DNA of 64,000 nucleotides from Synechococcales cyanobacterium S06 (GCA_011391125.1 JAABRE010000015.1:3700-67699), one strand, 5' to 3'; positions 5,007 through 60,053 are shown, counted from the stretch's first letter. Numbers and translations are program-made. Notes: generated by a model from the letters alone, not told the origin.

Positions 5007-5034
5007 ATTAAATGATAGTAAACTCTATTACAGT

Positions 5035-5236: not shown

Positions 5237-5240
5237 ATAT

Positions 5241-17022: not shown

Positions 17023-17125
17023 TATAGCAATCCTATTGAAATTGTGGGCCAGACGTTGCATGCAACGTCTCTACCGTAAAAGGTTAGTGAAAACAATTTT
17101 TTACAACCTATTTAGGATTGCTATA
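17023..17125. mobile_element. MITE, TATAGCAATCCTA-terminus family, containing a palindromic core
   Basis: Termini are TATAGCAATCCTA (17023-17035) and TAGGATTGCTATA (17113-17125). The core is AGACGTTGCATGCAACGTCTCTAC. It is an inverted copy of the element at 40405..40506 and ends 2 nt from the stop of the adjacent gene. Confidence 0.8.
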
Positions 17126-17126
17126 G

Positions 17127-18626
17127 TTAATTCTCTGGTTTTTTCTCCTCAGAAACTGGAGTTAAATCTGGTTTTTTCTCCTCAGAAACTGGAGTTAAAT
17201 CTGGTTTTTTCTCCTCAGAAACGGTGGAATTAACAGGGTTTAAATCTGGTTTTTTCTCCTCAGAAACGGTGGAATTAACAGGGTTTAAATCTGGTTTTTT
17301 CTCCTCAGAAACGGTGGAATTAACAGGGTTTAAATCTGGTTTTTTCTCCTCAGAAGGTTTAACCGATTGAGGAATATTATCAAGGAGGGGAGGAGTCGTA
17401 TTATTATTAGTTGACTGGGAATGTTTTTGATTAGCAGGTGGTAGTTGTTCAGGACAAATATTCTGATTATAAGCAAAATCAACGGTCACTAAATAGGGTT
17501 TAGGATTATCTTTTTTAAACTCATAAAAAGATATCTCAAATCGGGCATTTTCGTTAAAAATGGGGTATTCTGCACTTTTTATTAATTGTAAACTGGTTGG
17601 TTCACCCTGGCCGTTGACCAATACTCCATAGGTTGTACTACCTTCCAACTTTTGTAAACAAGCATCTTTGGGATACTTCCCTTTCAAGGTTAATTTTTCT
17701 GGTTCAACCTGATTAATCGTAATCAACCAATTGAGATAATTGGTGGTTGCTTCCTTGTCTGAAGTATTATTCGTATTTTTTGCCAATGCAGCGGCTCGTT
17801 GTTGAAGTTCCGTTCGGGCATTTTCCTGAGCCATGGCTAATAAATCCTGTTCCGAAGGGGGATTAATGTCTTGTTTCCCCGTGGGTGGTAAAAGGGGAAA
17901 TTCCCTGACATTAACGGGGTTTGGGGGGATTTCTGGGTCTTTTGGGGGTAATTTGGTTTCGGGATTCGGATTTTGATTAACTGGAGCATTGGAAAATTCC
18001 CTCAAAATATCGTTGGTACTACGAAGGGGAATTGAGTTAAGATCAACATTCATCTCGGTTTCGATTTCCTGTTGAGTTTCTAATTGTCTTTTTAATTCTT
18101 GTAAATCATCTTTCTGTGGTAGCGCTGGACTATTGTCAGATGGTTCATCAAAAGGCGGATTATTCAAAAGAGGAGGGGGAATGGGTACAGTTTTCGCAAC
18201 CGGTAACTCTTTAATCGCAGGAATTTCGGGGATTTCTGAGATTTCTGGTTTTTGATTGGTTTTATCAGCCAAGTCAGGAGGCAAAAATAAGGAAGTCGTG
18301 GGAAGAGGAGGAAGAGGAGTGGGAGTCGCCGGAAAAGGCAAAGCAAGCGCCGTTTCTAAGATGGGTGTGTTAGGGAGAGGTGTATTGGGAAATTCTGGCA
18401 CTTGAGTTGGTTTGGGCGACAAGTCCGGTAACCGTGCGACTTCTGTGTCGTTTAATTGTACAATGGGGACTGGATTTGTTTTAATATTTTTGTTTTCTAC
18501 CGAAAAGAGGGGCAAATTTGGGACAGCAAATAAAGCTCCATGACCAACCAAGGAAGCGATAATTCCTAGAATTGTACTAATAGGAATCTGATTAGAAAAA
18601 GAGGATTTTAAAGATAAATCAGACAT
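17127..18626 (-). CDS. proline-rich membrane-anchored protein, TonB-like architecture, with a tandem-repeat C-terminal tail
   Basis: One N-terminal TM helix, a long Pro-rich spacer, and a globular C-terminal-like region. The extreme C-terminus has three copies of a 15-aa unit and two of an 11-aa unit (SEEKKPDL...). The TonB assignment is architectural only. Confidence 0.6.
   Translation of the reverse strand: MSDLSLKSSFSNQIPISTILGIIASLVGHGALFAVPNLPLFSVENKNIKTNPVPIVQLNDTEVARLPDLSPKPTQVPEFPNTPLPNTPILETALALPFPATPTPLPPLPTTSLFLPPDLADKTNQKPEISEIPEIPAIKELPVAKTVPIPPPLLNNPPFDEPSDNSPALPQKDDLQELKRQLETQQEIETEMNVDLNSIPLRSTNDILREFSNAPVNQNPNPETKLPPKDPEIPPNPVNVREFPLLPPTGKQDINPPSEQDLLAMAQENARTELQQRAAALAKNTNNTSDKEATTNYLNWLITINQVEPEKLTLKGKYPKDACLQKLEGSTTYGVLVNGQGEPTSLQLIKSAEYPIFNENARFEISFYEFKKDNPKPYLVTVDFAYNQNICPEQLPPANQKHSQSTNNNTTPPLLDNIPQSVKPSEEKKPDLNPVNSTVSEEKKPDLNPVNSTVSEEKKPDLNPVNSTVSEEKKPDLTPVSEEKKPDLTPVSEEKKPEN
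17134..17356. repeat. perfect coding tandem repeats (2 x 33 nt, then 3 x 45 nt, plus a partial unit)
   Basis: Direct reading of TCTGGTTTTTTCTCCTCAGAAAC... units. All unit lengths are multiples of 3. Confidence 0.9.
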
Positions 18627-34514: not shown

Positions 34515-34522
34515 TTGTTAAC

Positions 34523-34627
34523 TATAGCACTTGCCAAATTTATGGGGACTCTTTTCCCCCTCTCCCTTTGGGATGAGGGGGGTAGGGGGGTGAGGGGTTG
34601 TATCTCATTTAATCTGAAAATGCTATA
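34523..34627. mobile_element. MITE, TATAGCA-terminus family with a G-rich hairpin core
   Basis: Termini are TATAGCACTTG (34523-) and AAAATGCTATA (-34627). The core is CCCCCTCTCCCTTTGGGATGAGGGGGGTAGGGGGGTGAGGGG. A second copy lies at 59740..59845. Confidence 0.75.
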
Positions 34628-34628
34628 T

Positions 34629-34665
34629 TAACTATCAACTATCAACTATCAACTATCAACTATTA
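34629..34665. repeat. heptamer tandem array (CTATCAA)n
   Basis: 7-nt periodicity. The array ends 2 nt before the ATG at 34668. Confidence 0.85.
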
Positions 34666-34667
34666 AC

Positions 34668-35120
34668 ATGACTTTTTTTCAATTTGAAGCGGCTTTTATC
34701 GAGTCTTTGCGGTGCATTCCCATGCAGATTAGAATCAATTTAGATACCTGTGGAGTTAAACTTAAATTAGCTCATTGGAATAAGTTTGATGAACAGGAAA
34801 AACAGGCTTTAGTTAATCTTCCTTGCACATCTAAAGAAGAAAGTCAAGCCTATCAAAACTTTTTGCAAAGTTTGCTTGTTAAACAAACTGGCAAACCTGC
34901 CCAAATGCTAGAAATAGATGAGTTTCCTGACTGGTTAAATGATAGTAATATTCCCGTCAATGTTAAAGAAAAAGCCGCTGAATTTGGTTTAGAAATTAGT
35001 TTACAGCAATGGGAAAATTTGACTCCTTTACAACGTTTTACTTTAATAAAATTGAGCAGAAAAGGTCACGAAAATCTTAATTTTTACCCAGCTTTAAAAG
35101 AGTTTAATTTGATCAATTAA
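34668..35120 (+). CDS. nitrate reductase-associated protein (small cyanobacterial family found next to narB)
   Basis: 150 aa. The N-terminal FQFEAAFIESLRCIPMQIRINLDTCGVKLKL matches my recollection of the narB-associated family. It lies immediately downstream of narB. Confidence 0.65.
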   Translation: MTFFQFEAAFIESLRCIPMQIRINLDTCGVKLKLAHWNKFDEQEKQALVNLPCTSKEESQAYQNFLQSLLVKQTGKPAQMLEIDEFPDWLNDSNIPVNVKEKAAEFGLEISLQQWENLTPLQRFTLIKLSRKGHENLNFYPALKEFNLIN

Positions 35121-37786: not shown

Positions 37787-38824
37787 GTGGATAATACTTT
37801 AGGTTTAGAAATTATTGAAGTAGTAGAATTAGCGGCGATCGCATCTTCAAAATGGATGGGTAAAGGCGAAAAAAACATCGCTGACGAAGTAGCTGTAGAA
37901 GCCATGCGCGAACGCATGAACAAAATCCACATGAGAGGTCGTATTGTCATTGGTGAAGGTGAAAGAGACGAAGCTCCCATGTTATACATTGGTGAAGAAG
38001 TCGGAATCTGTACCCGTGAAGATGCCAAAGCTTACTGTAACCCCGACGAATTAGTCGAAATCGACATCGCTGTTGACCCCTGCGAAGGTACTAACCTAGT
38101 AGCTTACGGTCAAAACGGTTCCATGGCAGTTTTGGCAATTTCCGAAAAAGGCGGTTTATTCGCAGCTCCTGATTTCTACATGAAAAAATTAGCCGCTCCT
38201 GCTGCTGCTAAAGGTCATGTTGATATTAACAAATCAGCTACCGAAAACCTCAAAATCTTATCTGACTGCTTAAATCGTTCCGTTGAAGAATTGGTTGTGG
38301 TAGTAATGGATCGCGAACGTCACACCGATTTAATCAAAGAAATCCGCGAAGCAGGTGCAAGAGTTCGTTTAATCAGCGATGGTGACGTTTCCGCCGCCAT
38401 TTCCTGTGCTTTCTCTGGTACAAATATTCATGCTCTTATGGGTATTGGTGCAGCTCCCGAAGGTGTTATTTCCGCAGCAGCCATGCGTTGTTTAGACGGT
38501 CACTTCCAAGGTCAATTAATCTATGATCCTGCTGTTGTTCAAACCGGTTTAATTGGCGAAAGCAGAGAAGGAAACCTCGCACGTTTAGCCGAAATGGGCA
38601 TCACTGACCCTGACAAAGTTTACAACGCTGATGAATTAGCTTCCGGTGAAACCGTACTTTTCGCAGCTTGTGGTATTACCCCCGGAACCTTAATGAACGG
38701 TGTTCGTTTCTTCCACGGTGGTGCAAGAACTCAAAGTCTGATCATTTCTTCCCAGTCAAAAACTGCTCGCTTTGTTGACACTGTCCACTTGCTTGATAAA
38801 CCCAAAGTTATTCAATTACATTAA
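37787..38824 (+). CDS. glpX: class II (GlpX-type) fructose-1,6-/sedoheptulose-1,7-bisphosphatase
   Basis: 345 aa. The GTG start gives [14 protein letters not shown]..., typical of the cyanobacterial dual FBP/SBPase. Confidence 0.9.
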
Positions 38825-38840: not shown

Positions 38841-38867
38841 GGGTAGGGTGGGCCATGTCCACCCTAC
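38841..38867 (+). terminator. stem-loop downstream of glpX
   Basis: GGTAGGGTGG / CCACCCTACC form a 10-bp stem 17 nt after the stop, followed by ATTTCTT. Confidence 0.5.
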
Positions 38868-39019: not shown

Positions 39020-40306
39020 ATGAATATTGTAGTTGTTGGTCTATCTCACAAAACAGCACCAGTAGGAATTCGGGAAAAATTAAGCATTCCCGAAGGGAAA
39101 ATAGAAGCAGCGATTACTCAATTAAAAAGCTATCCTCATCTTGATGAAGTGGCGATCATTAGCACTTGTAACCGTCTGGAAATTTACGCTGTAGCCAAGG
39201 AAACCGAAACTGGAGTTCAGGCCATTGCCCAATTTCTCGCCGAATACGGCCACATTTACCTCCATGAATTGAGACGCTATTTGTTTGTCTTATTACGTCA
39301 AGATGCCCTACGTCATTTGATGCGCGTATCAGCAGGTTTAGAAAGCTTGGTTTTAGGAGAAGGTCAAATTTTGGCTCAGGTCAAAACTACCCACAAATTA
39401 GCACAAAAATATAAGGGTTTGGGGCGTTTATTGGATCGTCTCTTTAAGCAAGCGATGACGGCCGGTAAACGGGTTCGTACCGAGACTAATATTGGTACAG
39501 GAGCAGTGTCGATTAGTTCGGCGGCGGTGGAATTGGCTGACGCAAAAGTCGAGCATTTGGAAAATTATCGGATTAGCATTATTGGAGCGGGCAAAATGTC
39601 TCGCTTACTTGTGCAACATTTGGCCGCTAAAGGTTGTCAAAATATTGCCCTAGTCAATAGATCTCACACTAGGGCGCAGGAATTGGCCGATAAATTCCCC
39701 GAAGCAAAGTTGCAAATTCATCTGTTACCAGAAATGATGAATGTAATCGCCAATTCTGACTTGGTTTTTACTAGCACGGGAGCAACTGAACCGATTTTAA
39801 CTAAGGGCAATTTAGAAGCTGTTTTAAAACCCGATCAGGAATTAATGCTGATTGATATTTCTGTCCCCCTCAATGTAGCCACGGATGTTGCTACTATGCC
39901 CAATGTGGCTTCCTATAACGTCGATGACTTAAAAGCCGTGGTTGCTCAAAACCATGCTACCCGTCGCCAAATGGCCCAAGAAGCAGAAGCCTTGTTAGAA
40001 GAAGAGGTTGAAGCTTATGTCGTGTGGTGGCGATCGCTGGAAACTGTACCAACCATTAGCTCTTTACGCAATAAAATTGAGGACATTCGCGAACAGGAAT
40101 TGGAAAAAGCCTTATCCCGTTTAGGTTCGGAGTTTGCGGAAAAGCACCAAGAAGTAATCGAGGCTTTAACCAGAGGTATTGTCAACAAAATTTTACATGA
40201 ACCTATGGTACAATTAAGGGCGCAACAAGATATTGAAGCACGTCACCGTTGTCTGCAATCTTTGCAAATGTTGTTTGATTTAGAGATCGAAGAACAATAC
40301 AGTTAA
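39020..40306 (+). CDS. hemA: glutamyl-tRNA reductase
   Basis: [15 protein letters not shown], the catalytic-Cys context STCNRLEIY, and the NADPH motif IGAGKM. The ATG at 39020 is preferred over the TTG at 38999. Confidence 0.9.
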
Positions 40307-40404
40307 TAGTTGATAGTTGATAGTTGATAGTTGACAGTTGATAGTTGATAGTTGATAGTTGATAGTTGACAGTTGATAGTTGACAGTTGATAGTTGACAG
40401 TTGA
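40301..40404. repeat. heptamer tandem array (AGTTGAT/AGTTGAC)n, about 15 units
   Basis: 7-nt periodicity. The hemA stop TAA (40304-40306) lies in the first unit. Confidence 0.9.
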
Positions 40405-40506
40405 TATAGCAATCCTAAATTAGTTGTAAAAAATTGTTTTCACCAAACCCTTACTGTAGAGACGTTGCATGCAACGTCTCTACACAACGAACATAGAACT
40501 GCTATA
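40405..40506. mobile_element. MITE, TATAGCAATCCTA-terminus family, inserted into the heptamer array
   Basis: The left terminus is TATAGCAATCCTA; the right terminus is degenerate (...AACTGCTATA). It contains the perfect 28-bp palindrome GTAGAGACGTTGCATGCAACGTCTCTAC (40456-40483). Removing the element plus one TA restores ...AGTTGATAGTTGATAG. Confidence 0.8.
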
Positions 40507-40627
40507 GTTGATAGTAAAAAAATTAATATCTAGTTACTAACTTCTATTAACTATTATTCATTATATTTCAGGTAAAATGTATTATAATTAATGACAAGAA
40601 AAGCTGTCTAAGGCCTCCTTCCCCCTC

Positions 40628-40682
40628 AGTTACCAGTTATCAATTGTTAACTGTTAACTGTTAACTGTTAACTGATAACTGA
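40628..40682. repeat. heptamer tandem array (AACTGTT/CAGTTAC variants)
   Basis: 7-nt periodicity. The array ends 1 nt before the ATG at 40684. Confidence 0.8.
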
Positions 40683-40683
40683 A

Positions 40684-43623
40684 ATGACACAATCTTTATT
40701 CTTTAAATTCGTTAAATTTATTTTAATTTTATTAGCTTTGTGGGTGGGTTTTACCATTATCACTAGGTTGATAGTTGAGAGTTTTTGGTTTCAAGAAGTT
40801 GGTTATTTTGATACTTTTTTATTACGTTTACAAACCAAAGTTGGCCTAGGGGCGATCGCTTCAATTATTTCCTTATTATTATTACTAATTAACCTAAATA
40901 TTGCGGATCAAAATAAGTGGAATTATCTCCCACAAAATCAACCAAAATCTAACCAACTTTTACCGCAAACACCTGTTTTAAAATTACCTTTATTATTATT
41001 AATAATTACAGTTTTTTCCTTTTTAAGTGGGTTAATGTTACTTTATTATGGTGAAATTGCCAGCGAATTAAAGCAGGTTGATTTTACTTTACCTAATATT
41101 ATCCCACCCCTACCTTCACCCTTTAAAGTAATTGCTTATTTTAGTAAAATTGCTCCCCAATTTTCTGAGAATATCTTTCATTTATCAGTATTAATAGCTA
41201 CCACAGTCTTTATTATTACTCAAGTTAAACTTACTACAAAAATTATTGCTGGAATTTTAAGTCTGCTTTCTGGTTTTATCTTATCAGCGAATTGGACCAG
41301 ATTTTTAGAATATTTTGCACCCACAGAATTTAATCAAACTGATCCTATTTTTGCCAAAGATATTAGTTTTTATATCTTTAAATTACCTTTTTGGCAATTA
41401 TTAGATTTCTGGTTAAGTGGTTTGTTTTTATCTGGTTTAATCTCCTGTTGTTTAATTTATTTATTATCAGCAAATAGCCTATCTGAAGGAAGATTTCCCG
41501 GATTTTCTACCCCACAATTGCGCCATATTTATATCTTAAGTGGTTTATTTATCTTAACCCTTTCCTTACGTCATTGGTTAACACGTTATGAATTGCTTAA
41601 TTCCCAACGAGGTGTGACTTATGGAGCAGGTTTTACCGATATCAAGATCGAATTACCCATCCAAACTAACTTAGCAATTATTGCTTTAATCATTGCAATT
41701 TGGTTAATTTTGAAAGCCATATTTCATGGTAAAAATAGATTTAGATTATTCCTTAAACAAGATAAATTAGTCCAAAAAACAACCCCTTTAATTGCCGGGG
41801 TTATGGTAATCTATTTATTCCTAACAATTATTGGTTTTTTCTCAAGTCTGCTCATTCAAAGAATTAGCGTTCAACCCAATGAATTGGCCAGGGAAAAACC
41901 CTATATTGAACGAAGTATCGCATATACTAGAAAAGCATTTGGTTTAGATAATATAGACGCAAAAACCTTTGATCCAGAAGATAAATTAACCATTGAAGAT
42001 ATACAAAAAAATTATCTTACTATTGAAAATATCCGTCTTTGGGATACCCGACCAATTTTACAAACTAATCGTCAATTGCAACAAATTAGACTTTATTATA
42101 AGTTTAATGATGCCGATATTGATCGTTATAATTTAACCCTGAAAAAACAGCAAAAGATCGTTACTGAGAAACAACAAATTATTATTGCAGCTCGAGAATT
42201 AGATTATACTGCTGTTCCTAAAGAAGCACAAACTTGGGTTAATGAACATTTAGTCTACACCCATGGTTATGGTTTTACCATGTCTCCAGTTAATCAAGTT
42301 GCTGAAGCCGGCTTGCCTGACTATTATGTTAAAGATATTGGTACAGATACCATAGCAGATCAAGAAGGAAGTTTAAACATTTCTAATAAGTTAATTTCTA
42401 ATACTATTCCCATAGGAAAACCCCGTATTTATTATGGTGAATTAACGAATAATTATATTTTAACAGGGACAAATACTTTGGAATTTGACTTTCCTAGCGG
42501 GGAAGAAAATGTTTATAATACCTATGATGGGAAAGGAGGAATTTCTATTAAAAATATTGGGCAAAGATTATTATTTGGAAGCTATTTGAGGGATTGGCGC
42601 ATTCTTTTTGCTCAAAATATTACTCCGGAAACTAAACTTTTATTCCGTCGTAATATTAACATGAGAATAAGGGCGATCGCTCCTTTTTTGCATTACGATA
42701 AAAACCCTTATTTAGTAATTGCTGATGGAAACGATACTAATATAAATGGCGAAAAAAATTATTTATATTGGGTGATTGATGCTTACACCACAACAGATCA
42801 TTATCCCTACTCTGATCCCGGAAATAACAGTTTTAATTATATTAGAAACTCCGTTAAAGTTGTTATTAATGCCTATAATGGTGACATAAATTTTTATATT
42901 TCTGATCAGAATGATCCCATTCTACAAACATGGGAAAAGTTATTTCCTAACCTATTTAAACCCATTGAAAAAATGCCTGCAAATATTTTCGCTCATATTC
43001 GTTATCCCACGGATTTATTTACCATCCAATCCGAACGTTTATTGTCTTATCACATGACAGACCCCCAAGTATTTTATAATCGCGAAGATCAATGGGAAAT
43101 TCCCCAAGAAATTTATGCCAATCAGTCTCAACCCATTGATCCCTATTATTTGATCATGAAATTACCCACTGCAAAATCCGAGGAATTTATCCTACTTCAC
43201 CCCTACACTCCCCGAAGTCGACCTAATTTAATTGCCTGGTTGGCGGGACGTTCAGATGGCGAAGAATATGGTAAATTACTGTTATATCAATTCCCGAAAC
43301 AAAAATTAATTTATGGTCCTGATCAAATTGAAGCTTTAATTAATCAAGACCCCGTTATTTCCCAACAAATATCCCTCTGGAATCGGGAAGGTAGTAGAGC
43401 AATTCAAGGTAATTTATTAGTCATTCCCATTGAACAATCTTTATTATATGTGGAACCTTTATATTTAGAAGCAGAAAGAAATAGTTTGCCTACTTTAGCT
43501 AGAGTTATTGTAGTATATGAAAATAAAATTATTATGGCCGATAATTTATCCGATGCTTTAACAGCAGTTTTTACTCCCAAAAAACAGGAAAATACTGCCA
43601 TTATTCGACCACTTGGTAGTTGA
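40684..43623 (+). CDS. UPF0182 family large membrane protein
   Basis: 979 aa. The N-terminal third is multi-TM, followed by a large soluble region. The VYTHGYGF and WLAGRSDG-type blocks resemble UPF0182. Confidence 0.75.
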   Translation: MTQSLFFKFVKFILILLALWVGFTIITRLIVESFWFQEVGYFDTFLLRLQTKVGLGAIASIISLLLLLINLNIADQNKWNYLPQNQPKSNQLLPQTPVLKLPLLLLIITVFSFLSGLMLLYYGEIASELKQVDFTLPNIIPPLPSPFKVIAYFSKIAPQFSENIFHLSVLIATTVFIITQVKLTTKIIAGILSLLSGFILSANWTRFLEYFAPTEFNQTDPIFAKDISFYIFKLPFWQLLDFWLSGLFLSGLISCCLIYLLSANSLSEGRFPGFSTPQLRHIYILSGLFILTLSLRHWLTRYELLNSQRGVTYGAGFTDIKIELPIQTNLAIIALIIAIWLILKAIFHGKNRFRLFLKQDKLVQKTTPLIAGVMVIYLFLTIIGFFSSLLIQRISVQPNELAREKPYIERSIAYTRKAFGLDNIDAKTFDPEDKLTIEDIQKNYLTIENIRLWDTRPILQTNRQLQQIRLYYKFNDADIDRYNLTLKKQQKIVTEKQQIIIAARELDYTAVPKEAQTWVNEHLVYTHGYGFTMSPVNQVAEAGLPDYYVKDIGTDTIADQEGSLNISNKLISNTIPIGKPRIYYGELTNNYILTGTNTLEFDFPSGEENVYNTYDGKGGISIKNIGQRLLFGSYLRDWRILFAQNITPETKLLFRRNINMRIRAIAPFLHYDKNPYLVIADGNDTNINGEKNYLYWVIDAYTTTDHYPYSDPGNNSFNYIRNSVKVVINAYNGDINFYISDQNDPILQTWEKLFPNLFKPIEKMPANIFAHIRYPTDLFTIQSERLLSYHMTDPQVFYNREDQWEIPQEIYANQSQPIDPYYLIMKLPTAKSEEFILLHPYTPRSRPNLIAWLAGRSDGEEYGKLLLYQFPKQKLIYGPDQIEALINQDPVISQQISLWNREGSRAIQGNLLVIPIEQSLLYVEPLYLEAERNSLPTLARVIVVYENKIIMADNLSDALTAVFTPKKQENTAIIRPLGS

Positions 43624-43667
43624 TAGTTGATAGTTGATAGTTGACAGTTGATAGTTGACAGTTGATC
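43618..43667. repeat. heptamer tandem array (AGTTGAT/AGTTGAC)n
   Basis: 7-nt periodicity. The stop TGA (43621-43623) of the upstream gene lies in the first unit. Confidence 0.9.
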
Positions 43668-43704
43668 AGTCTTTTCTTATTTATTACTTCCTACTTTTTA
43701 CTTC

Positions 43705-45766: not shown

Positions 45767-46855
45767 TTAAATGGAGTTAAATTCATAGATATAACCATCT
45801 TGTTGATGTATGCAAGCAAACAAGGAGAGTTTTCCACCAATACGTTTCCCATTAACTCTAACTTCTAATCTTGTAGCTGATTGAATGACCATTTTTCCTG
45901 TATAAGAAACACCATCTTTAATAATAGTTGCTATATCTCCTGTTTTCCAACCCATGTTATATTTTTGACGTGGTTTTGAGATAGGAAATCCATATTTATT
46001 AATTCGACATAATCTCCTTGTACCTTGTCCTTTTGCTGTTATTATTAAGGGATTTTTTGTTAATAATTTTAAGGTAGTAATATCTCCCACACAAGCAGCA
46101 TCAATCCAATGAGTTTTTGGGAAGTTTAATTTAATACGATTAAATTTGGTTTTACCTCCACTACTGGTAATAAGTGGTAATCCCATTTCTTTTCAAGAAT
46201 TAAACAGTTGCCAACGAGTTGTATTAACCGCAGTAGCGTCTTTTAATGGTTGTTTTGCTTGTGTTTTAATTTGTTGTAGTAATTGTGGTTGATCACTTAA
46301 AAAGTGATCAATTAATTGACTACCTTTTTTCTGATTACAACCTTTACAAGCAAGGGTTAAATTAGAAATGCGATTACTACCTCCAAGGGATTTGGGTTTA
46401 ATATGTTCAATTTCTAAAGGAACATCTTTTTTACCACAATAAACGCAATTTCTACCCCATTTTTCTAATAAATATTCTCGAATTTCATAACCTTGTAATT
46501 CACCTCTTTCAGTTACCAGTGAACAGTTACCAGTGAACAGATAATTAATAGTTAATAACTGATAACTGATAACTGATAACTGATAACTGAAATGACCACG
46601 ATGTTTTAATTCTGCTCCCCAAATTACTTGATTATTAGAAACTAAAGCAACTCCTGTAGTTTTTGAACCAGGGTCGAGTTTTAATTCTATAGGTTGACTA
46701 ACAACATTGAGTTTTACTTCCTTGAGAATAATTGTAAATGGATAACGTCTAAAAACCGATGCTTTCCTTTGTTTTAATAGCTTTCGAGCTACACTAGGGT
46801 GAGTGGGTTGTAAAGGTGTTTTGTTGGCATCTAAAACAAAAACATAATTGCTCAT
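45767..46855 (-). pseudogene. iscB: decayed IscB-type RNA-guided nuclease (RuvC-HNH, IS200/IS605-associated OMEGA family)
   Basis: The N-terminus is PLMP-like (VFVLDANKTPLQPTHPSVARKLLKQRKA). RuvC-I is LDPGSKTTGVAL, HNH is CVYCGKKDVPLEIEHIKPKSLGGSNRISNLTLACKGCNQKKG, and RuvC-III is THWIDAACVG. An in-frame TGA lies at 46193-46195 (LFNS*KEMGLP). The segment between RuvC-I and HNH is replaced by heptamer-repeat-encoded SYQLSVISYQLLTINYLFTGNCSLV. Confidence 0.75.
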
Positions 46856-50856: not shown

Positions 50857-51214
50857 GGTTTACGGAAAAAAGCTGACAGCTATGTAGATCAAGACTTTTA
50901 AGTTGGTGGGACTTGAATTAAGGGCAAGGATTTCAACAAATAATAGTAAAAAACCTGGCGTTGCATGACTCTGAGATGAAATTGTAGGGGCAATCCCTTG
51001 TGGTTGCCCCCGAAACGCTGATAGGGTAGGGACAAGCCCTACCCCTACATTGAAAATAAATATCAAATCATCTTGCATAGGTGCAACGCCAAAAACCTTA
51101 CATTTACGGGGATTAATCAAGATTTTTGCTCGTCAAAAGACCCGGTCAAACTATCAACTATCAACTATCAACTATCAACTCGCCCTCACCAGCCATTTAT
51201 TCAGCAAGCCCTAA
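50857..51214. repeat. about 215-bp dispersed intergenic repeat, copy 2, interrupted by a 134-bp MITE
   Basis: Matches the reverse complement of 2912..3126 on both sides of 50957-51090. It fills the gap between convergent genes. Confidence 0.85.
50957..51090. mobile_element. 134-bp MITE with 9-bp terminal inverted repeats and an 8-bp target-site duplication
   Basis: TIRs are GGCGTTGCA (50957-) and TGCAACGCC (-51090), flanked by AAAAACCT at 50949-50956 and 51091-51098. Two internal hairpins are present: GGGGCAA/TTGCCCC (50987-51010) and GGGTAGGG/CCCTACCC (51024-51044). The paralogous site at 3027-3034 is empty. Confidence 0.85.
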
Positions 51215-52368: not shown

Positions 52369-52442
52369 GGCGAGCGTGGCCAAGTGGTTAAGGCAGAGGT
52401 TTGTGGTACCTCCATGCGTGGGTTCAAGTCCCATCGTTCGCC
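52369..52442 (+). tRNA. tRNA-His (anticodon GUG) with encoded G-1
   Basis: Hand-folded cloverleaf. G-1 pairs with C73. The acceptor is GCGAGCG/CGTTCGC (one G-U). The anticodon stem is GAGGT/ACCTC with loop TTGTGGT. The T arm is GTGGG-TTCAAGT-CCCAT. CCA is not encoded. A T-run follows. Confidence 0.85.
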
Positions 52443-52635
52443 CTTATTTTTTTTCCTAATATTACTGATTGGTAAAATCAGTTTTCTACTCAGATTTTAC
52501 TCAACTGTTGATATTTTGATGCTTTTTGACCCAGCAAAGGGGTTAATTTATTTATTCAAAATATTGCTAATGCTATTAAAATTAGTTGACAATAAGTCTT
52601 ATAATTAGGAATTATTTTTATTTCTATTAATAATT

Positions 52636-55600
52636 ATGTCAATTACTCTTATTAATCAATATCGTCGGGATTTAGAAGCTAAAATTCGTTTTGGTGGTTC
52701 TCGTAACGAAAATTCTGTCAGATTTGCTTTCGGTAATTTGCTAAATTCCTATTGTAAAGCGCGGGATTTTGTCTTGGTTGATGAGTTAACTATTTCTAGT
52801 CGTTTTAATACTCAGATTCGCCTTGATGGCATTGTTAAAGATGCTTTAAGACTGGATTGGGGGTATTGGGAGGCTAAAGATGAAAAAGATAATTTAGATG
52901 AGGAAATTGAGTTAAAAATTAATCAGAAAGGTTATCCCACTGATAATATTTTATTTGAGGATACTAAGACTGCTGTTTTAATCCAAAATGGCCGAGAAAC
53001 CCTACGGATTAAGATGGAAAATGACACCGATTTAGATAAGATTATTAATCTATTTTTAGACTACGAAAGAGGAGAAGTTAAAGATTTTCGACAAGCAATT
53101 TCCTCTTTTAAGGAAGATTTACCCACGATTTTAACTACTCTGAGAAATCTAATTGATCAGCAACTTGTAGAGACGTACCATGGTACGTCTCTACAAACAT
53201 TTAAAGATAAATTTAACGTTTTTTTAAAAGTTTGTCAAGATTCCATCAATCCTAATCTTAATGAAGCTGATATTCGGGAGATGATTATTCAGCATATTTT
53301 AACTGAGGATATTTTTACTAATATCTTTAGTGAGGGACAATTTCACCAAGAAAATAATGTTGCTTGTCAGTTACAAGAACTAATTAAAACCTTTTTTACA
53401 GGTAGTCTTAAACGCCAGACTTTAAAAACTATTGAAAGTTATTATCAAGTAATTATTAGAACCGCTGCTAATATTGTCAATCATCAGGAAAAACAGAAGT
53501 TTTTAAAAGTAGTTTATGAGAATTTCTATCAGGCCTATAATCCTTTGGCGGCCGATCGCCTCGGAATCGTTTATACTCCGAATGAAATCGTTAAATTCAT
53601 GGTGGAAAGTACCGATTATTTATTAACCAAATACTTTCAAAAAACCTTGGGCGATCGGGGAGTTGAAATCTTAGATCCAGCCACGGGTACAGGTACTTTT
53701 ATCACCGAAATTTTAGAGTATTTATTAACCAGAGATATTACCTATAAATATCAGCATGAAATCCACTGTAATGAGGTTTCTATTTTGCCCTATTATATCG
53801 CAAATCTTAATATTGAATACAGTTATCAGCAAAAAACTGGACAATATTTAGAGTTTAATAATATCTGTTTAGTTGATACTTTGGAGCATAGTTCCTTTAG
53901 TGGTAAACAGATGGATATATTCGCCATGAGTCAGGAAAATACGGAGCGAATTAAGCGACAAAATGAACGAAAAATATCAGTCATTATTGGCAATCCTCCC
54001 TATAATGCTAAACAAGAAAACTTTAATCAAAATAATGCAAATCGTGGTTATCAAAGTATAGATAAACGTATCAAAGATACTTATGTAAAAGAAGGAAATG
54101 CACAAAATCAAATAGTATTGTATGATATGTACACTAGGTTTATAAGATGGGCAACAGACAGATTAAATGATAACGGAATTATTGCATTTATTACAAATTC
54201 CTCTTTTATTGATGCACTAACTTTTGATGGTTTTAGAAAGGTTATTTCCTCTGAATTTAGTCAGATTTATGTCATTGATTTAGGAGGTAATATTAGAGCA
54301 GGGGATAAAACAGGAAATGTGTTTAATATTATGGTGGGAGTTGCCATTACTTTCTTAGTGAAAAAATCCGACTCCCCTCACCATCTGGGAGAGGAGTCGG
54401 GAGTGAAGAAAAATTGTCAAATTTACTATCAAAAATTAGCTCAAAATAATAGCAAAGATAAGTTAAATTATTTAGCACAAACTCAATTTAAAGATATTCC
54501 TTTTGAACACCTTACCCCTGATAAAAAGCATAACTGGATTAATCAAGTAGATAATAATTTCGATGAATTACTACCTTTAATTGATAAAAATGTTAAGTCA
54601 GGAAAATCTGAGCAAGCAATTTTTAAGTTATTTTCGAGGGGAATTGGTACTTATCGAGATGATTGGGTTTATGATTTTTCTGAGGAAAATTTAACTAAAA
54701 AAGTAGCGTTTTTTATTGAAACTTATCAAAAAACCTTACAAGATAACGACTTTAAAGACAAAAATAACATAAAATGGGATCGGGAATTAACTAATTATTT
54801 AAAGAGAAGAATTCATAAAGAATTTAATCAAGAGCAGATTATTTCAAGTTTATATCGGCCATTTATTAAACAATATTTGTATTTTGATAAACATCTTAAT
54901 GGGATGACTTATCAATGGTTTGATATTTACAGAAAAAAAGATCAAGATAATAAATATATTGCATTTTTAACATTAGGAAATAGTAAATCTTTTCATTGTT
55001 TAGCAACAAATTTAATGGTTGATTTACACTTAACCGGTGATTCTCAATGTCTTCCCTTATCTAGTTATGATGAAAATGGCGAAAAAATTGATAATATAAC
55101 GGATTGGGGATTAGAACAGTTTAGGGAATATTATCAACCCTCACCCCCCCAACCCCCCTCTCTCTCAGAGAGAGGGGGGAGAAGACTTTCAGATAATTCT
55201 AGCTCCCCTCACCCTGTGGGAGAGGGGTTGGGGGTGAGGGCTAATCCGCCTACAGGAGAAAAGTTGGGGGTGAGGAAAATAACTAAACTAGACATATTCC
55301 ATTATATTTATGCAGTTTTACATAATCCGAAATACAGGGAAAAATACGAGCAGAATTTGAAACGAGATTTCCCAAGAATACCTTTTTATCCTAATTTTAA
55401 TCAGTGGAAAAATTGGGGTGAAAAATTAATGGAATTACATCTAAATTATGAGAGTATTTCACCTTATCCTTTGAAAAATGTAGAGACGTTGCATGCAACG
55501 TCTCTACATTCAATCCCAAAACCCAAATTAAAAGTAGATAAAACCAAGGGTCAAATAATCATTGATGAGATTACCATTTTAGAAAATGTCCCCGAAATTG

Positions 55601-55812
55601 CCTGGGAATATAAATTAGGCAATCGTAGTGCGATTGAGTGGATTTTAGACCAATATAAAGAGAAGAAAATTAAAGATGAAACCATTTCCAAACATTTTAA
55701 TAATTACCGTTTTTCTGATTATAAAGAGGAGGTGATCGACTTATTAATGCGTGTTACTACTGTTAGTGTGGAAACCATGAATATTATTAATCAAATGGAT
55801 AATCTCGACTAA
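52636..55812 (+). CDS. Type IIG-like fused restriction endonuclease / N6-adenine DNA methyltransferase with a C-terminal specificity region; carries in-frame repeat insertions
   Basis: The N-terminal PD-(D/E)XK-like motif is RLDG...WEAKD (D64, E79-x-K81). The SAM motif is LDPATGTGTF and the catalytic motif is IGNPPYN. 1058 aa, uninterrupted. Confidence 0.8.
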   Translation: MSITLINQYRRDLEAKIRFGGSRNENSVRFAFGNLLNSYCKARDFVLVDELTISSRFNTQIRLDGIVKDALRLDWGYWEAKDEKDNLDEEIELKINQKGYPTDNILFEDTKTAVLIQNGRETLRIKMENDTDLDKIINLFLDYERGEVKDFRQAISSFKEDLPTILTTLRNLIDQQLVETYHGTSLQTFKDKFNVFLKVCQDSINPNLNEADIREMIIQHILTEDIFTNIFSEGQFHQENNVACQLQELIKTFFTGSLKRQTLKTIESYYQVIIRTAANIVNHQEKQKFLKVVYENFYQAYNPLAADRLGIVYTPNEIVKFMVESTDYLLTKYFQKTLGDRGVEILDPATGTGTFITEILEYLLTRDITYKYQHEIHCNEVSILPYYIANLNIEYSYQQKTGQYLEFNNICLVDTLEHSSFSGKQMDIFAMSQENTERIKRQNERKISVIIGNPPYNAKQENFNQNNANRGYQSIDKRIKDTYVKEGNAQNQIVLYDMYTRFIRWATDRLNDNGIIAFITNSSFIDALTFDGFRKVISSEFSQIYVIDLGGNIRAGDKTGNVFNIMVGVAITFLVKKSDSPHHLGEESGVKKNCQIYYQKLAQNNSKDKLNYLAQTQFKDIPFEHLTPDKKHNWINQVDNNFDELLPLIDKNVKSGKSEQAIFKLFSRGIGTYRDDWVYDFSEENLTKKVAFFIETYQKTLQDNDFKDKNNIKWDRELTNYLKRRIHKEFNQEQIISSLYRPFIKQYLYFDKHLNGMTYQWFDIYRKKDQDNKYIAFLTLGNSKSFHCLATNLMVDLHLTGDSQCLPLSSYDENGEKIDNITDWGLEQFREYYQPSPPQPPSLSERGGRRLSDNSSSPHPVGEGLGVRANPPTGEKLGVRKITKLDIFHYIYAVLHNPKYREKYEQNLKRDFPRIPFYPNFNQWKNWGEKLMELHLNYESISPYPLKNVETLHATSLHSIPKPKLKVDKTKGQIIIDEITILENVPEIAWEYKLGNRSAIEWILDQYKEKKIKDETISKHFNNYRFSDYKEEVIDLLMRVTTVSVETMNIINQMDNLD

Positions 55813-55834: not shown

Positions 55835-56509
55835 TTAAAAATCCAATTGAGCGATCCTTTGTTGTAACATTTGCGGGAATTTTGAGTAATATTTTATGTT
55901 TAATGGTGATGGGTGAGGTAAGGGTAATAATGTTATTAATTTTTCGTGTTTTTCTCCATTTTCGTCTATTGTAGTTAAGTTTATCTCAATTTTAGCCTCG
56001 TATCGATCGCCCCTTTGCCAAAAATTTTGGAGATTTTCCTTGTCATAAATGGTAAACCAAGTAAAGGCTTCTGTACCAAGAGTTATTATTTGATTCCCTT
56101 TCCAATGTAACACTAAAAAACGTTCAATAAAAGGCCGAAAACGTTTTTTTACTTTCTGGGAATAGGCTTTATTTTCTGGCGGTTTATAGGGTACAGTATT
56201 AGTAAGTAAAAGATGAGTACAAATAGTTTCTAAAAGTTTTTTATCAGTGGTATTTTGTCGATGAATAGCATAATAAAAACCTTGACGAACTAATGTACCT
56301 GCGGCTCCGTATAAAGGTTGACGAGCGAATACTTCATCTCGACCTAAATCACGGCCAAAAATACACAATTGACTGTTTAAGTTACCGGTATAAAGAATGG
56401 GTTGAGTCGGGGTGAGGCCAGCTTCGTGGTAAACTGGAATGTCAAGGGGAAAGTCGGCTTGTTCAGCTTCTTGTTTAATTTGCTCAATTAAAGTGATAAT
56501 TTCAGACAT
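55835..56509 (-). CDS. uracil-DNA glycosylase superfamily protein
   Basis: Motif A-like FGRDLGRDE...GAAG and motif B-like LPHPSPLN. 224 aa. Confidence 0.65.
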   Translation of the reverse strand: MSEIITLIEQIKQEAEQADFPLDIPVYHEAGLTPTQPILYTGNLNSQLCIFGRDLGRDEVFARQPLYGAAGTLVRQGFYYAIHRQNTTDKKLLETICTHLLLTNTVPYKPPENKAYSQKVKKRFRPFIERFLVLHWKGNQIITLGTEAFTWFTIYDKENLQNFWQRGDRYEAKIEINLTTIDENGEKHEKLITLLPLPHPSPLNIKYYSKFPQMLQQRIAQLDF

Positions 56510-59662: not shown

Positions 59663-59743
59663 TTATAGTAATTCCAAATACAAATTAAACAATATAAAAC
59701 AAACCTATTTTTCAACTGTTCTAATCTTAATTGGAATTACTAT
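59663..59743. mobile_element. MITE, TATAGTAATTCCAA-terminus family (81-bp copy)
   Basis: Perfect 14-bp TIRs TATAGTAATTCCAA (59663-59676) and TTGGAATTACTATA (59730-59743). Confidence 0.8.
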
Positions 59744-59845
59744 AGCATTTTTAGTTGATATTTTGCCCTTTTCCCCCCTCTCCCTTTGGGATGAGGGGGG
59801 TTGGGGGGTGAGGGGGTATATAACACTTAATCAGAAAATGCTATA
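59740..59845. mobile_element. MITE, TATAGCATTTT-terminus family with a G-rich hairpin core, inserted at the terminal TA of the preceding MITE
   Basis: TIRs are TATAGCATTTT (59740-59750) and AAAATGCTATA (59835-59845). The core is CCCCCCTCTCCCTTTGGGATGAGGGGGGTTGGGGGGTGAGGGGG. Confidence 0.8.
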
Positions 59846-60053
59846 TAAAACTTTGAAACCCTTTTCTCTTAAACTTTTGACAAGAGCTCAAGGCCCTCTA
59901 AATTCCAGTTTATAACTGATTTATTGATCTGTGTGTGTGGTAAAATACCTAAACCCAGAAATCCCATTTCTTTCATTTTTGTTGTATCAAAATTTACTAA
60001 ACTAAAAATACAAATAGATTATTCTATATCAGTAAAGAAATAGTCTCTTAACC

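What the first reader, a model, noticed from the sequence alone, without database searches (positions are those of the whole stretch)
52636..55812. Type IIG-like restriction-methyltransferase ORF riddled with in-frame palindromes and G-rich hairpin repeats
Seen, the 1058-aa ORF is intact yet contains:
- (a) A perfect 28-bp palindrome GTAGAGACGTACCATGGTACGTCTCTAC at 53167-53194, encoding VETYHGTSLQ.
- (b) The variant GTAGAGACGTTGCATGCAACGTCTCTAC at 55480-55507, encoding VETLHATSLH. It is identical to the core of the MITEs at 40456-40483 and about 17047-17074.
- (c) A G-rich hairpin unit at 54370-54407, encoding SPHHLGEESGVK.
- (d) A 135-bp block at 55141-55275 made of two to three units of the same G-rich family in both orientations, encoding PSPPQPPSLSERGGRRLSDNSSSPHPVGEGLGVRANPPTGEKLGVR. 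These match the cores of the intergenic MITEs at 34541-34600 and 59765-59820.

Known: small dispersed repeats inserted in frame within cyanobacterial genes have been described.

Inference: four independent frame-preserving insertions in one defence gene is striking. One possibility is that the insertions sit in tolerated surface loops and selection has filtered out frame-breaking events. The other is that the gene is drifting toward pseudogenisation. The palindromic core appears to move independently of its MITE shell. Inserts in the C-terminal specificity region could alter target recognition.
Basis: partly seen in the sequence, partly recalled or inferred. Interest (0 to 1): 0.6.

Follow-up and report, generated by a model that had tools for sequence, protein, structure and literature searches.

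The report
Restriction enzyme gene peppered with translated repeats
An intact cyanobacterial restriction-modification enzyme gene carries four in-frame copies of two kinds of small hairpin-forming mobile DNA; this kind of event is known, but here it shows which loops of the enzyme tolerate such DNA and links one repeat family to a nuclease-carrying element.

Summary
The 1058-aa ORF at 52636-55812 is intact and full-length homologous to DrdV, a solved Type IIL (IIG-class) restriction-modification enzyme. All nuclease and methyltransferase catalytic residues are present, and the gene shows purifying selection, so it is not decaying.

The two palindromes are "double-foot" GTAG...CTAC REPs. This REP type is already described for RAYT/TnpA_REP subclass 2.4 of cyanobacteria and Bacteroidetes, including in-frame intragenic copies.

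The G-rich units are copies of a roughly 40-nt hairpin. In other cyanobacteria this hairpin forms the inverted ends of a cassette encoding a DUF559 (Vsr-like) nuclease. The 135-bp block in this gene is the two cassette ends without the nuclease, sharing its left junction with Cyanobacterium-clade orthologues that carry the full cassette.

All four inserts lie where DrdV and insert-free orthologues have gaps or variable loops. The same sites hold other repeats, and even whole domains, in related orthologues. Inserts b, c and d are inherited; insert a is lineage-specific.

The best reading is selfish repeats tolerated in permissive linkers of a dispensable, mobile defence gene. That is a new member of a known kind. 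The DUF559 cassette and its apparent habit of sitting inside defence methyltransferase genes is the part that may be new.

The parts
52636..55812 (+). Intact ORF for a DrdV-type Type IIL (IIG-class) single-chain restriction-modification enzyme. It has an N-terminal PD-ExK nuclease (about aa 1-155), a helical connector (about aa 160-290), a gamma-class N6-adenine methyltransferase (about aa 290-640) and a target recognition domain (about aa 641-1058).
   Evidence: ORF open. Pfam ISP_coupler, N6_Mtase/Eco57I and Type_ISP_C. PADLOC REase_MTase_IIG, E = 3.5e-268. PDB 7LO5 DrdV, E = 2e-297, full length, 43% identity; the DrdV active-site residues E25, D64, E79, K81 and K94, and the NPPY motif, are all present.
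53166..53195 (.). Insert a. A 30-bp perfect palindrome, a double-foot GTAG...CTAC REP with centre ACCATGGT, read as VETYHGTSLQ. It lies at the junction between the nuclease and the helical connector.
   Evidence: I6. DNA hairpin -13.6 kcal/mol, z = -7.8; it coincides with a 7-residue gap in DrdV; the closest orthologue P0002 lacks it; 25 orthologues carry other repeats at this site.
55479..55508 (.). Insert b. A 30-bp perfect palindrome, the same REP family with centre TGCATGCA, read as VETLHATSLH. It lies in a variable loop of the target recognition domain between two predicted strands.
   Evidence: I5.: -15.2 kcal/mol, z = -9.5; shared with P0002, P0003 and P0006; no secondary structure predicted at 951-960; about 50 orthologues vary in length here.
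54370..54408 (+). Insert c. A single, partly decayed G-rich hairpin unit read as DSPHHLGEESGVK, near the end of the methyltransferase domain.
   Evidence: D1, D2.; relatives have the better preserved SPHPLGEGLGVR; 7-residue gap in DrdV; pLDDT below 50 at residues 582-591.
55138..55183 (-). Insert d, left unit. A G-rich hairpin unit in inverted orientation, read as PSPPQPPSLSERGGR. It is equivalent to the left terminal inverted repeat of the DUF559 cassette.
   Evidence: the junction TATTAyCAA|CCCTCACCCCCCCAACCCCCCTCTC is the same as in L207 and L208, where a DUF559 domain follows.: -14.8 kcal/mol.
55203..55240 (+). Insert d, right unit. A G-rich hairpin unit in forward orientation, read as SSPHPVGEGLGVR. 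It is equivalent to the right terminal inverted repeat of the DUF559 cassette.
   Evidence: (I2): it forms a 38-nt inverted repeat with the left unit, 13 nt apart.
55246..55275 (+). Insert d, third unit. A partial, decayed forward unit read as NPPTGEKLGVR.
   Evidence: (D2): 86% identical to 55219-55239; this unit is tandemly expanded in orthologue P0006.
40405..40506 (+). Intergenic MITE-like shell (TATAGCAATCC...TGCTATA) with an exact REP copy at its centre (40456-40483).
17023..17125 (-). Second copy of the same shell, in the opposite orientation, with a REP copy (17047-17074) decayed at one end.
34522..34628 (+). Intergenic MITE-like shell (CTATAGCA...TGCTATA) with one G-rich hairpin unit at its centre (34556-34596).
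   Evidence: (D9).
59740..59846 (+). Second copy of the G-rich MITE-like shell (unit at 59773-59820).
   Evidence: (D9).
52370..52443 (+). tRNA-His gene 192 bp upstream of the restriction-modification ORF. It is a likely integration landmark for this single-gene island.
   Evidence: the gene has lower G+C (about 0.30) than the window (0.37); orthologues sit in unrelated neighbourhoods.

Best explanation
**What it is.** The ORF encodes a functional-looking DrdV-type Type IIL restriction-modification enzyme, carried as a single-gene island next to tRNA-His. Four of its inter-domain linkers or surface loops contain translated copies of two families of selfish, hairpin-forming mobile DNA.

**The two families**
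- The 28-30 bp palindromes are "double-foot" GTAG...CTAC REPs. These are the cognate repeats of the TnpA_REP (RAYT) subclass 2.4 Y1/HUH transposases, which are thought to move REPs as single-stranded hairpins.
- The G-rich units are copies of a roughly 40-nt hairpin, CCTCACCCC-nn-CCCCTCTCC-nnnn-GGAGAGGGG. In other cyanobacteria this unit forms both inverted ends of a cassette that encodes a DUF559 (Vsr-like PD-(D/E)xK) nuclease. Block d is the two cassette ends without the nuclease. Insert c and the intergenic cores are solo units.

**Why they persist.** The elements read without stops in most phases. They landed in segments whose length is unconstrained. The host gene is dispensable enough for slightly burdened alleles to survive. 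Selection then kept the enzyme working around them.

**Shown here**
- The inserts are insertions.
- They share identity with the intergenic repeats.
- The same sites are hot spots in orthologues.
- Inserts b, c and d are inherited.
- Catalytic motifs are intact and the gene is under purifying selection.
- The REP family sits beside and inside RAYT-like genes elsewhere.
- The G-rich unit forms the ends of DUF559 cassettes elsewhere.

**Inferred**
- The enzymes that moved the repeats.
- That the inserts are neutral for enzyme activity.
For: **Enzyme identity and integrity**
-. DrdV residues E25, D64, E79, K81 and K94, the NPPY motif and motif I are conserved.
- Against P0002 (88% identical), only 8 of 464 conserved columns differ, compared with 110 of 591 other columns.

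**The segments are insertions**
- Inserts a, c and d fall in gaps of DrdV, and b falls in a variable loop.
- Typical orthologues are 996-1004 aa.

**Hot spots**
- Among about 194 orthologues, length insertions cluster at reference positions ~175, ~577, ~822 and ~895-901.
- The inserted peptides there are translations of assorted GC-rich repeats.

**REP identity**
- The sequence has a GTAG foot at the 5' end and CTAC at the 3' end. This matches the "double foot" REP of subclass 2.4 described in PMC6006769. GTAG-tagged cyanobacterial and intragenic REPs are described in PMC3733652.
- Ten of the 120 metagenome contigs chosen only for carrying the palindrome encode a RAYT-like protein. NCBIfam REP_Tyr_transpos scores E about 1e-16.
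- REPs lie beside and inside that gene. One such contig is cyanobacterial.
- Copies elsewhere are mostly non-coding. 18% lie in long open frames, against 66% of random positions. Coding copies use only the two stop-free phases, 20:6:0.

**G-rich family**
- The left junction is the same in the window and in L207/L208. Unit d2 matches their right end units, though the flank beyond it differs.
- Both ends of DUF559 cassettes in four host genes are inverted copies of the unit found in the window.
- AlphaFold2 gives low-confidence coil at inserts c and d.
Against: - No RAYT-like gene and no DUF559 gene lies in the 64-kb window. The rest of the genome could not be searched, so mobilisation in this host is unproven.
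- Net length changes at sites a and b are only +3 to +4 residues against insert-free orthologues. The events were therefore not clean 30-bp insertions, or they were followed by deletions.
- Insert b is still a perfect 34-bp palindrome even though it is shared with orthologues down to 63% identity. Simple neutral decay does not predict this.
- Enzyme activity, and neutrality of the inserts, are untested.
- The AlphaFold2 model is of modest quality (mean pLDDT 67, pTM 0.38).
Confidence: 0.75

Rival explanations
1. **Targeted parasitism of defence genes.** The DUF559 cassette, and perhaps its solo units, preferentially lands in DNA methyltransferase genes of defence systems, either by homing or as an anti-defence strategy. 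Block d would then be the scar of such an event rather than a random tolerated insertion. This partly overlaps with the best explanation.
For: - DUF559 cassettes with the same inverted ends lie in several defence methyltransferase genes:
  - the DrdV-like gene at the same site in Cyanobacterium-clade genomes, Spirulina subsalsa and the filamentous strain ESFC-1;
  - a DUF1156 methyltransferase gene and a BREX PglX gene in Synechocystis sp. B12;
  - in frame in a 1621-aa PglX of Pseudanabaena galeata.
- Among the cyanobacterial plasmid hits to the unit that fall under a named CDS product, six are methyltransferases or the cassette's own nuclease CDS, and one is cas10d.
- A 1580-aa Pseudanabaena DNA methyltransferase carries at least 8 units in frame.
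- In this window the only gene hit is the restriction-modification gene.
- DUF559 belongs to the Vsr/EDxHD clan, which includes a proven homing endonuclease.
Against: - Insertion points differ between host families. In PglX they lie next to motif I, and in the DrdV-like genes they lie in the target recognition domain. No common target motif was found.
- Cyanobacterial plasmids are rich in defence genes, so the sample is biased.
- Large, dispensable, multi-domain proteins would accumulate such inserts without any targeting.
- No enrichment test against whole genomes was possible.
Confidence: 0.35
2. **Exaptation.** The inserts now serve the host. They could act as mRNA or DNA hairpins that tune expression of a toxic enzyme, as flexible linkers, or as shared homology patches that let paralogous restriction-modification genes swap nuclease, methyltransferase and target recognition modules.
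For: - The inserts sit at or near domain boundaries: nuclease to connector, end of the methyltransferase domain, and within the target recognition domain.
- Insert b has stayed a perfect palindrome in a lineage that has otherwise diverged to 63-88% identity.
- Cyanobacterium-clade genomes hold several paralogues with the same units at the same sites.
- Specificity-loop variants are distributed in a mosaic pattern among orthologues.
Against: - Content at each site is highly variable between close relatives, and the sites are often empty.
- Insert c and the third unit of d are decaying.
- Most REP copies elsewhere are intergenic and depleted from coding DNA.
Confidence: 0.12
3. **Pseudogenisation.** The gene is drifting toward loss, and the inserts are early signs of decay.
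For: - Four foreign segments lie in one gene.
- The relative P0004 is truncated at its C-terminus.
- In Synechocystis sp. B12 the same cassette splits its host genes.
Against: - The frame is open for 1058 aa.
- All catalytic residues are kept.
- Only 1 of 234 columns that are invariant in the other orthologues is changed.
- Substitutions against P0002 are about 11-fold rarer in conserved columns.
- Inserts b, c and d have been carried through speciation in intact genes.
Confidence: 0.05
4. **Native linkers or artefact.** The segments are native low-complexity linkers that merely resemble repeats, or they are assembly artefacts.
For: Proline- and glycine-rich linkers are common in multi-domain proteins.
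Against: - The DNA is identical or near-identical to intergenic repeats.
- The same palindrome is translated in two different phases in different proteins.
- The same inserts appear in independently assembled orthologues and in finished RefSeq plasmids.
Confidence: 0.02

Closest known systems
[quoted passage not shown]
   Same: - Full-length homology: E = 2e-297, 43% identity.
- Same domain order: PD-ExK nuclease, helical connector, N6-adenine methyltransferase, target recognition domain.
- Same nuclease residues (E25, D64, E79, K81, K94) at the same residue numbers, and the same NPPY motif.
   Different: - DrdV lacks inserts a, c and d, and has a different sequence in loop b.
- The residues aligned to its base contacts D803 and K807 are H798 and D802 here, so the recognition sequence is probably not CATGNAC.
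- Activity of the window enzyme is untested.
Double-foot GTAG REPs of TnpA_REP subclass 2.4 / RAYT group 4 (Quentin et al. 2018, PMC6006769; Di Nocera et al. 2013, PMC3733652)
   Same: - A 5' GTAG foot with its complement CTAC at the 3' end, and a long stem.
- Found in cyanobacteria and Bacteroidetes.
[quoted passage not shown]
- Occasional in-frame copies occur in unrelated genes.
   Different: - In the window no transposase gene is in view.
- Two copies lie in one defence gene.
- The exact 28-mer is shared across contigs with G+C from 0.29 to 0.67. I did not find this cross-phylum identity stated in the papers I read.
Rickettsia palindromic elements and other intragenic MITEs (from my own knowledge: Ogata et al. 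2000; the intragenic repeats RPE-1, -4 and -6 are cited in PMC3733652)
   Same: Palindromic selfish repeats inserted in frame into functional protein genes and translated as extra surface peptides.
   Different: Unrelated sequences and hosts. The Rickettsia elements are longer (about 100-150 bp). No link to a nuclease cassette is known.
Small dispersed repeats of cyanobacteria
   Same: Very small repeats (about 20-30 nt) that occur alone, nested in MITE-like shells, and inside genes without breaking the frame.
   Different: They were described for Nostocales. Sequence identity with the two families here could not be checked.
Homing endonuclease genes and inteins, including Vsr-like EDxHD enzymes such as I-Bth0305I (cited)
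   Same: For the full DUF559 cassette in relatives: a nuclease gene lodged inside a host gene, recurring at the same site in diverged orthologues.
   Different: - There is no intein or intron to splice it out. The nuclease is simply translated through as a nested domain, or it splits the host gene.
- It is bracketed by hairpin inverted repeats, like a transposon.
- The window holds only the ends.

Membership tests
Type IIL / IIG single-chain restriction-modification enzymes (DrdV family) | N-terminal PD-ExK nuclease with the DrdV active-site residues | tested here: met
   E25, D64, E79, K81 and K94 are present at the same residue numbers as in DrdV.
Type IIL / IIG single-chain restriction-modification enzymes (DrdV family) | Helical connector, gamma-class N6-adenine methyltransferase (motif I and NPPY) and C-terminal target recognition domain in one chain | tested here: met
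   Pfam ISP_coupler at 160-284, N6_Mtase/Eco57I at 290-550 and Type_ISP_C at 661-1036. DPATGTGTF and GNPPYN are invariant. Full-length match to 7LO5.
Type IIL / IIG single-chain restriction-modification enzymes (DrdV family) | No RecA-like ATPase or translocase, which separates this family from Type ISP (LlaGI, LlaBIII) | tested here: met
   No helicase domain in Pfam. Residues 1-834 align colinearly with DrdV 1-839. Type ISP enzymes match only from query residue 152 or 185 onward.
Type IIL / IIG single-chain restriction-modification enzymes (DrdV family) | One-strand m6A methylation of an asymmetric site and cleavage at a fixed distance | not testable with these tools
   This needs methylome data or biochemistry.
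GTAG-tagged REP, double-foot type, of TnpA_REP subclass 2.4 | A 20-40 bp palindrome with 5' GT[AG]G and 3' C[TC]AC | tested here: met
   GTAG...CTAC, 28 nt, perfect stem. Definition taken from PMC6006769.
GTAG-tagged REP, double-foot type, of TnpA_REP subclass 2.4 | Dispersed multi-copy repeats that are mainly extragenic | tested here: met
   Four copies in the window, two of them intergenic. Of 143 copies in sampled metagenome and viral contigs, only 18% lie in long open frames.
GTAG-tagged REP, double-foot type, of TnpA_REP subclass 2.4 | Copies flank, and in this subclass also lie inside, a tnpA_REP gene with NH[IFV]H, WQ and YIxNNP motifs | tested here: met
   Met in other loci: L082, L106, L126 and L188. 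The proteins score below the NCBIfam cut-off (46-59 bits against 80, E about 1e-16), but the motifs match Table 1 of PMC6006769.
GTAG-tagged REP, double-foot type, of TnpA_REP subclass 2.4 | A cognate tnpA_REP gene in the same genome | not testable with these tools
   None in the 64-kb window. The source genome could not be retrieved.
MITE (for the ~100-bp TATAGCA...TGCTATA shells) | Short, non-coding, with terminal inverted repeats and several copies | tested here: met
   Two copies of each shell with inverted TATAGCA/TGCTATA ends.
MITE (for the ~100-bp TATAGCA...TGCTATA shells) | Target-site duplication and a related autonomous element | not tested
   Flanks were not compared with empty sites.
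DUF559 cassette with G-rich hairpin inverted ends (provisional family defined here) | Both ends are inverted copies of CCTCACCCC-nn-CCCCTCTCC-nnnn-GGAGAGGGG | tested here: met
   Window units at 55138-55183 (inverted) and 55203-55240 (forward) align with the ends in L207, L208, L212 and L213.
DUF559 cassette with G-rich hairpin inverted ends (provisional family defined here) | An internal DUF559 nuclease ORF | tested here: not met
   Only 13-21 nt separate the two ends in the window. tblastn finds no DUF559 in the window. Block d is therefore at most a non-autonomous derivative.
Intein or homing-endonuclease insertion | Self-splicing protein or RNA element around the nuclease | tested here: not met
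   No intein or intron signature was seen. In L207, L208 and L214 the nuclease is read straight through in the host frame.

The most novel reading that the evidence does not exclude
The G-rich hairpin unit is the terminal inverted repeat of a previously undescribed cyanobacterial mobile element whose autonomous form encodes a DUF559 (Vsr-like) nuclease. This element preferentially resides inside DNA methyltransferase genes of defence systems: DrdV-type Type IIL, BREX PglX, DUF1156 and large plasmid-borne DNA methyltransferase genes. It survives there by being translated through in frame as a nested domain, that is, parasitism of defence genes without an intein. The 135-bp block in this window would be its non-autonomous, two-ends-only derivative, and solo units would be its MITE-like progeny.
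Probability: 0.35. Interest if true: 0.7.

Novelty: new member of a known kind. Interest (0 to 1): 0.5.

Why it matters
- **A natural insertion-tolerance map.** The gene shows four positions where a DrdV-type enzyme accepts anything from 10 residues to whole nuclease or transposase domains. DrdV is solved and biochemically characterised. This is useful for engineering Type IIL enzymes and for annotating over-long orthologues correctly.
- **A cleaner picture of "in-frame MITEs".** Here two unrelated repeat families are involved, and their sequences read open in most phases.
- **A link between a common peptide and a nuclease cassette.** The GEGLGVR/PSPxGEG-type peptide is common in cyanobacterial proteins. 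It is tied here to the ends of a nuclease-bearing cassette that repeatedly sits in defence methyltransferase genes. If targeting is real, this would be a new kind of interplay between selfish DNA and anti-phage systems.

Tried and rejected
**Searches that led nowhere**
- I tried to fetch DNA of the closest orthologues (P0001, P0002, P0003, P0006) for exact boundaries and dN/dS. None is on record, and the cluster look-up gave no names.
It did not return the source genome, so a genome-wide REP census was impossible.
- The Elhai 2008 paper is not held.
- Literature searches for the exact palindrome, its peptides and the G-rich unit found nothing relevant.
- A plasmid search with the RAYT-like protein gave only non-cyanobacterial hits.
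- No repeat of the tRNA-His 3' end was found downstream of the gene, so the island borders are undefined.

**Ideas considered and dropped**
- I first took the REP inside RAYT-like genes, just after the HUH motif, to be new. I dropped that on finding it described for subclass 2.4 in PMC6006769.
- I first read the PF04480 and PF01797 hits in long orthologues as N-terminal fusions. The sequences show they are nested at site d.
- I considered that the palindrome might be a sequencing adaptor because it occurs in contigs of G+C 0.29-0.67. I rejected this because symmetric centre variants exist, it is translated in two phases, and it is present in finished plasmids.
- I checked whether the palindrome centre matches the DrdV site CATGNAC. 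By eye against the sequence it does not, and the specificity residues differ anyway.

**Limits of what was obtained**
- The AlphaFold2 model has modest global quality (pTM 0.38). I used it only for local disorder and relied on the sequence alignment to DrdV.

Full report
**1.

The ORF at 52636-55812 (+) is open for 1058 codons.

- Insert a is perfectly symmetric over 32 bp (53165-53196).
- Insert b is perfectly symmetric over 34 bp (55477-55510).
- The pattern GTAGAGACGTnnCATGnnACGTCTCTAC occurs four times in the window and never in 100 shuffles.
- The intergenic copies at 40456 and 17047 sit in the middle of the same ~100-bp TATAGCA...TGCTATA shell, in opposite orientations. The 17047 copy is decayed at one end. 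The two gene copies share only the core.

The G-rich segments are also real.
- Insert c (54370-54408) is 86% identical to the unit at 55203-55237.
- Block d consists of an inverted unit, a forward unit and a partial forward unit.
- Single units form the cores of two further shells at about 34.5 kb and 59.8 kb.
- Both palindromes fold as strong DNA hairpins (-13.6 and -15.2 kcal/mol, z = -7.8 and -9.5). The G-rich units fold more weakly.

All other copies in the window are intergenic. The gene covers 5% of the window yet holds half of the copies of each family.

**2. The host gene**

Pfam finds ISP_coupler, N6_Mtase/Eco57I and Type_ISP_C domains. PADLOC calls the protein a Type IIG restriction-methyltransferase.

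The decisive match is to DrdV, a Type IIL enzyme with cryo-EM structures. The match is E = 2e-297, colinear over the whole length, at 43% identity.

The DrdV paper names the nuclease residues E25, D64, E79, K81 and K94. All five are present at the same residue numbers here. Motif I and NPPY are also present. There is no helicase module, so this is not a Type ISP enzyme.

Thousands of homologues exist. Typical cyanobacterial orthologues are 996-1004 aa and about 60% identical.

The gene lies 192 bp downstream of tRNA-His. Its G+C is lower than that of the window. Its orthologues sit in unrelated neighbourhoods. I therefore read it as a mobile single-gene island.

It is not decaying. Against the closest orthologue (88% identical), 8 of 464 conserved columns differ, compared with 110 of 591 other columns. 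Only 1 of 234 columns that are invariant in the other 76 sequences is changed.

**3. The segments are insertions in permissive places**

| Insert | Position relative to DrdV |
|---|---|
| a | A 7-residue gap at the start of the helical connector |
| c | A 7-residue gap near the end of the methyltransferase domain |
| d | 46 residues between DrdV residues 839 and 842 |
| b | A loop that is variable in DrdV too |

The AlphaFold2 model is of modest quality. It shows low-confidence coil at c and d and no secondary structure at b.

I scored about 194 orthologues against an insert-free reference. Length insertions pile up at the same four sites, plus two others. The inserted peptides are translations of many different GC-rich repeats, mainly in the Cyanobacterium/Geminocystis clade.

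- Inserts b, c and d are shared with orthologues at 63-88% identity, so they are inherited.
- Insert a is absent from the closest orthologue. A more distant relative, P0004, has a REP with a different centre at the same site.

**4. What the palindrome is**

It begins with GTAG and ends with CTAC. Quentin et al. 2018 describe exactly this "double foot" REP for TnpA_REP subclass 2.4, which equals RAYT group 4. [quoted passage not shown] Di Nocera et al. 2013 had already listed GTAG REPs in cyanobacteria and in-frame intragenic REPs.

My data agree with both papers.
- Ten of those contigs encode a RAYT-like protein, with the REP beside and inside the gene.
- One such contig is cyanobacterial.
- In 240 homologues, the loop after the HUH motif mostly reads RDVACNVST, VETxHAxSLQ or VETLQCNVST. 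These are the same DNA read in different phases.
- In the sample, 139 of 143 copies have a symmetric centre. Only 18% lie in open frames of at least 170 aa, against 66% of random positions. Coding copies use the two stop-free phases 20:6:0.
- Exact copies also lie in finished Anabaena and Planktothrix plasmids, one of them inside an annotated polyketide synthase gene.

This half of the finding is therefore a new instance of something already described.

**5. What the G-rich unit is**

Longer orthologues of 1213-1284 aa carry a DUF559 domain. It is nested in the target recognition domain at site d, not fused at the N-terminus.

At the DNA level the window and L207/L208 share the same left junction, TATTAyCAA|CCCTCACCCCCCCAACCCCCCTCTC. 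Unit d2 of the window matches their right-hand end units. The window lacks only the roughly 130-codon nuclease between the two ends.

The same cassette occurs in other host genes.
- In Synechocystis sp. B12 plasmids it lies inside a DUF1156 methyltransferase gene and inside a BREX PglX gene, and splits both.
- In Pseudanabaena galeata it lies in frame in a 1621-aa PglX.

In every case the two ends are inverted copies of one unit, CCTCACCCC-nn-CCCCTCTCC-nnnn-GGAGAGGGG. Insert c, block d and the two intergenic cores of the window belong to that unit family.

A plasmid search with the unit gave these cyanobacterial hits under a named CDS product:
- "DNA methyltransferase" twice;
- "DUF1156" twice;
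- "DUF559";
- "endonuclease domain-containing protein";
- cas10d once.

One 1580-aa Pseudanabaena methyltransferase carries at least eight units in frame.

DUF559 belongs to the Vsr clan, which includes a proven homing endonuclease. I found no paper describing this cassette, but my literature access is limited.

**6. Mechanism**

*Shown:* the points in sections 1-5.

*Inferred:*
- The REPs were copied in by a subclass 2.4 Y1 transposase acting on single-stranded hairpins.
- The G-rich units derive from, and may be moved by, DUF559 cassettes.
- The inserts persist because they read open in most phases (2 of 3 for the REP, 4 of 6 for unit d2), because they lie in linkers of unconstrained length, and because the host gene is dispensable.

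*Unexplained:*
- Net length gains at sites a and b are only 3-4 residues.
- Insert b is still a perfect 34-bp palindrome despite its apparent age.
- The symmetry of both palindromes extends into the flanks.

These points hint at re-insertion, homogenisation or a symmetrising copying mechanism.

**7. Verdict**

Tolerated loops and an independently occurring core are right. Pseudogenisation is not. An effect on specificity cannot be judged.
- The kind of event is known. The instance is new and informative.
- The DUF559 cassette, and its apparent preference for defence methyltransferase genes, is the lead worth following.

Noticed in passing
L209:4446-5189 (orthologue P0035, Cyanobacterium aponinum FACHB-4101): A complete IS200-like Y1 transposase (LPDHVHLII ... 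IEYIENNH) is inserted in frame at the same site as window insert d. It is flanked by ~45-nt direct repeats that contain the 18-bp palindrome AAGGGGCTTAAGCCCCTT.
   Followed up: partly
L214:2036-6044, L215:28-4770, L212, L213, L216 (Pseudanabaena, Synechocystis and Planktothrix plasmids): BREX PglX, DUF1156 and other large defence methyltransferase genes carry the same G-rich units in frame, up to eight or more per gene. In three cases they carry a whole DUF559 cassette, either in frame or splitting the gene.
   Followed up: partly
L211:3001-3029; L114:1011-1038; L082:9073-9100; L191:6132-6159: The same REP lies in long open frames that look like real genes. These are an annotated type I polyketide synthase, a D-Ala-D-Ala ligase (with the same ACCATGGT centre as window insert a), an MmeI-like Type IIG enzyme next to a RAYT-like gene, and a 1344-aa ORF that I took by eye to be a magnesium or cobalt chelatase large subunit.
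   Followed up: partly
L189:2075-2629; L130:1189-1355: REP copies occur in regular arrays, four at ~176-bp spacing in L189 and three at 63-76 bp spacing in L130. These look like clustered REPs or tandem duplications.
   Followed up: no
window 53165-53196 and 55477-55510: Perfect symmetry extends 2-3 nt beyond the 28-bp REP on both sides (TT...AA and AAT...ATT). In the metagenome and viral sample 34% of copies have T at -1 and A at +1. This suggests insertion into short AT palindromes or a symmetrising copy mechanism.
   Followed up: partly
window 38843-38867: A second type of GTAG...CTAC palindrome, GTAGGGTGGGCCATGTCCACCCTAC, lies just downstream of the ORF 37787-38824.
   Followed up: no
window 2454-2577, 2909-3011, 4935-5242, 34616-34675, 40279-40430, 40623-40702, 43589-43698, 46521-46596, 51149-51194: Many intergenic arrays of tandem heptamers (AGTTGAT/AGTTGAC and their complement) are present. 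They often abut the MITE-like shells.
   Followed up: no
window 17134-17367: Tandem 33- and 45-bp repeats lie inside the C-terminal part of the ORF 17127-18626 (-), so they are translated as a repeated peptide.
   Followed up: no
window 11968-12086 and 9379-9516: There is an exact 55-bp direct duplication at 64-bp spacing, with a related motif at 49722. There is also a 69-bp tandem pair with hairpin-like GGTGGGYAAAACGG...CCGTTTTGCCCACC ends.
   Followed up: no
Orthologues P0003 and P0004 (alignment A1, columns 81-96): A 12-14-residue repeat-derived insert (IKWMYPPTPPLKGG) sits inside the nuclease ExK motif region. Depending on alignment it may still leave an E-x-K triplet.
   Followed up: no
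window 55835-56509 (-) and 52370-52443 (+): The restriction-modification gene is bracketed by a uracil-DNA-glycosylase-superfamily gene and a tRNA-His gene. No separate methyltransferase or specificity gene lies nearby.
   Followed up: partly
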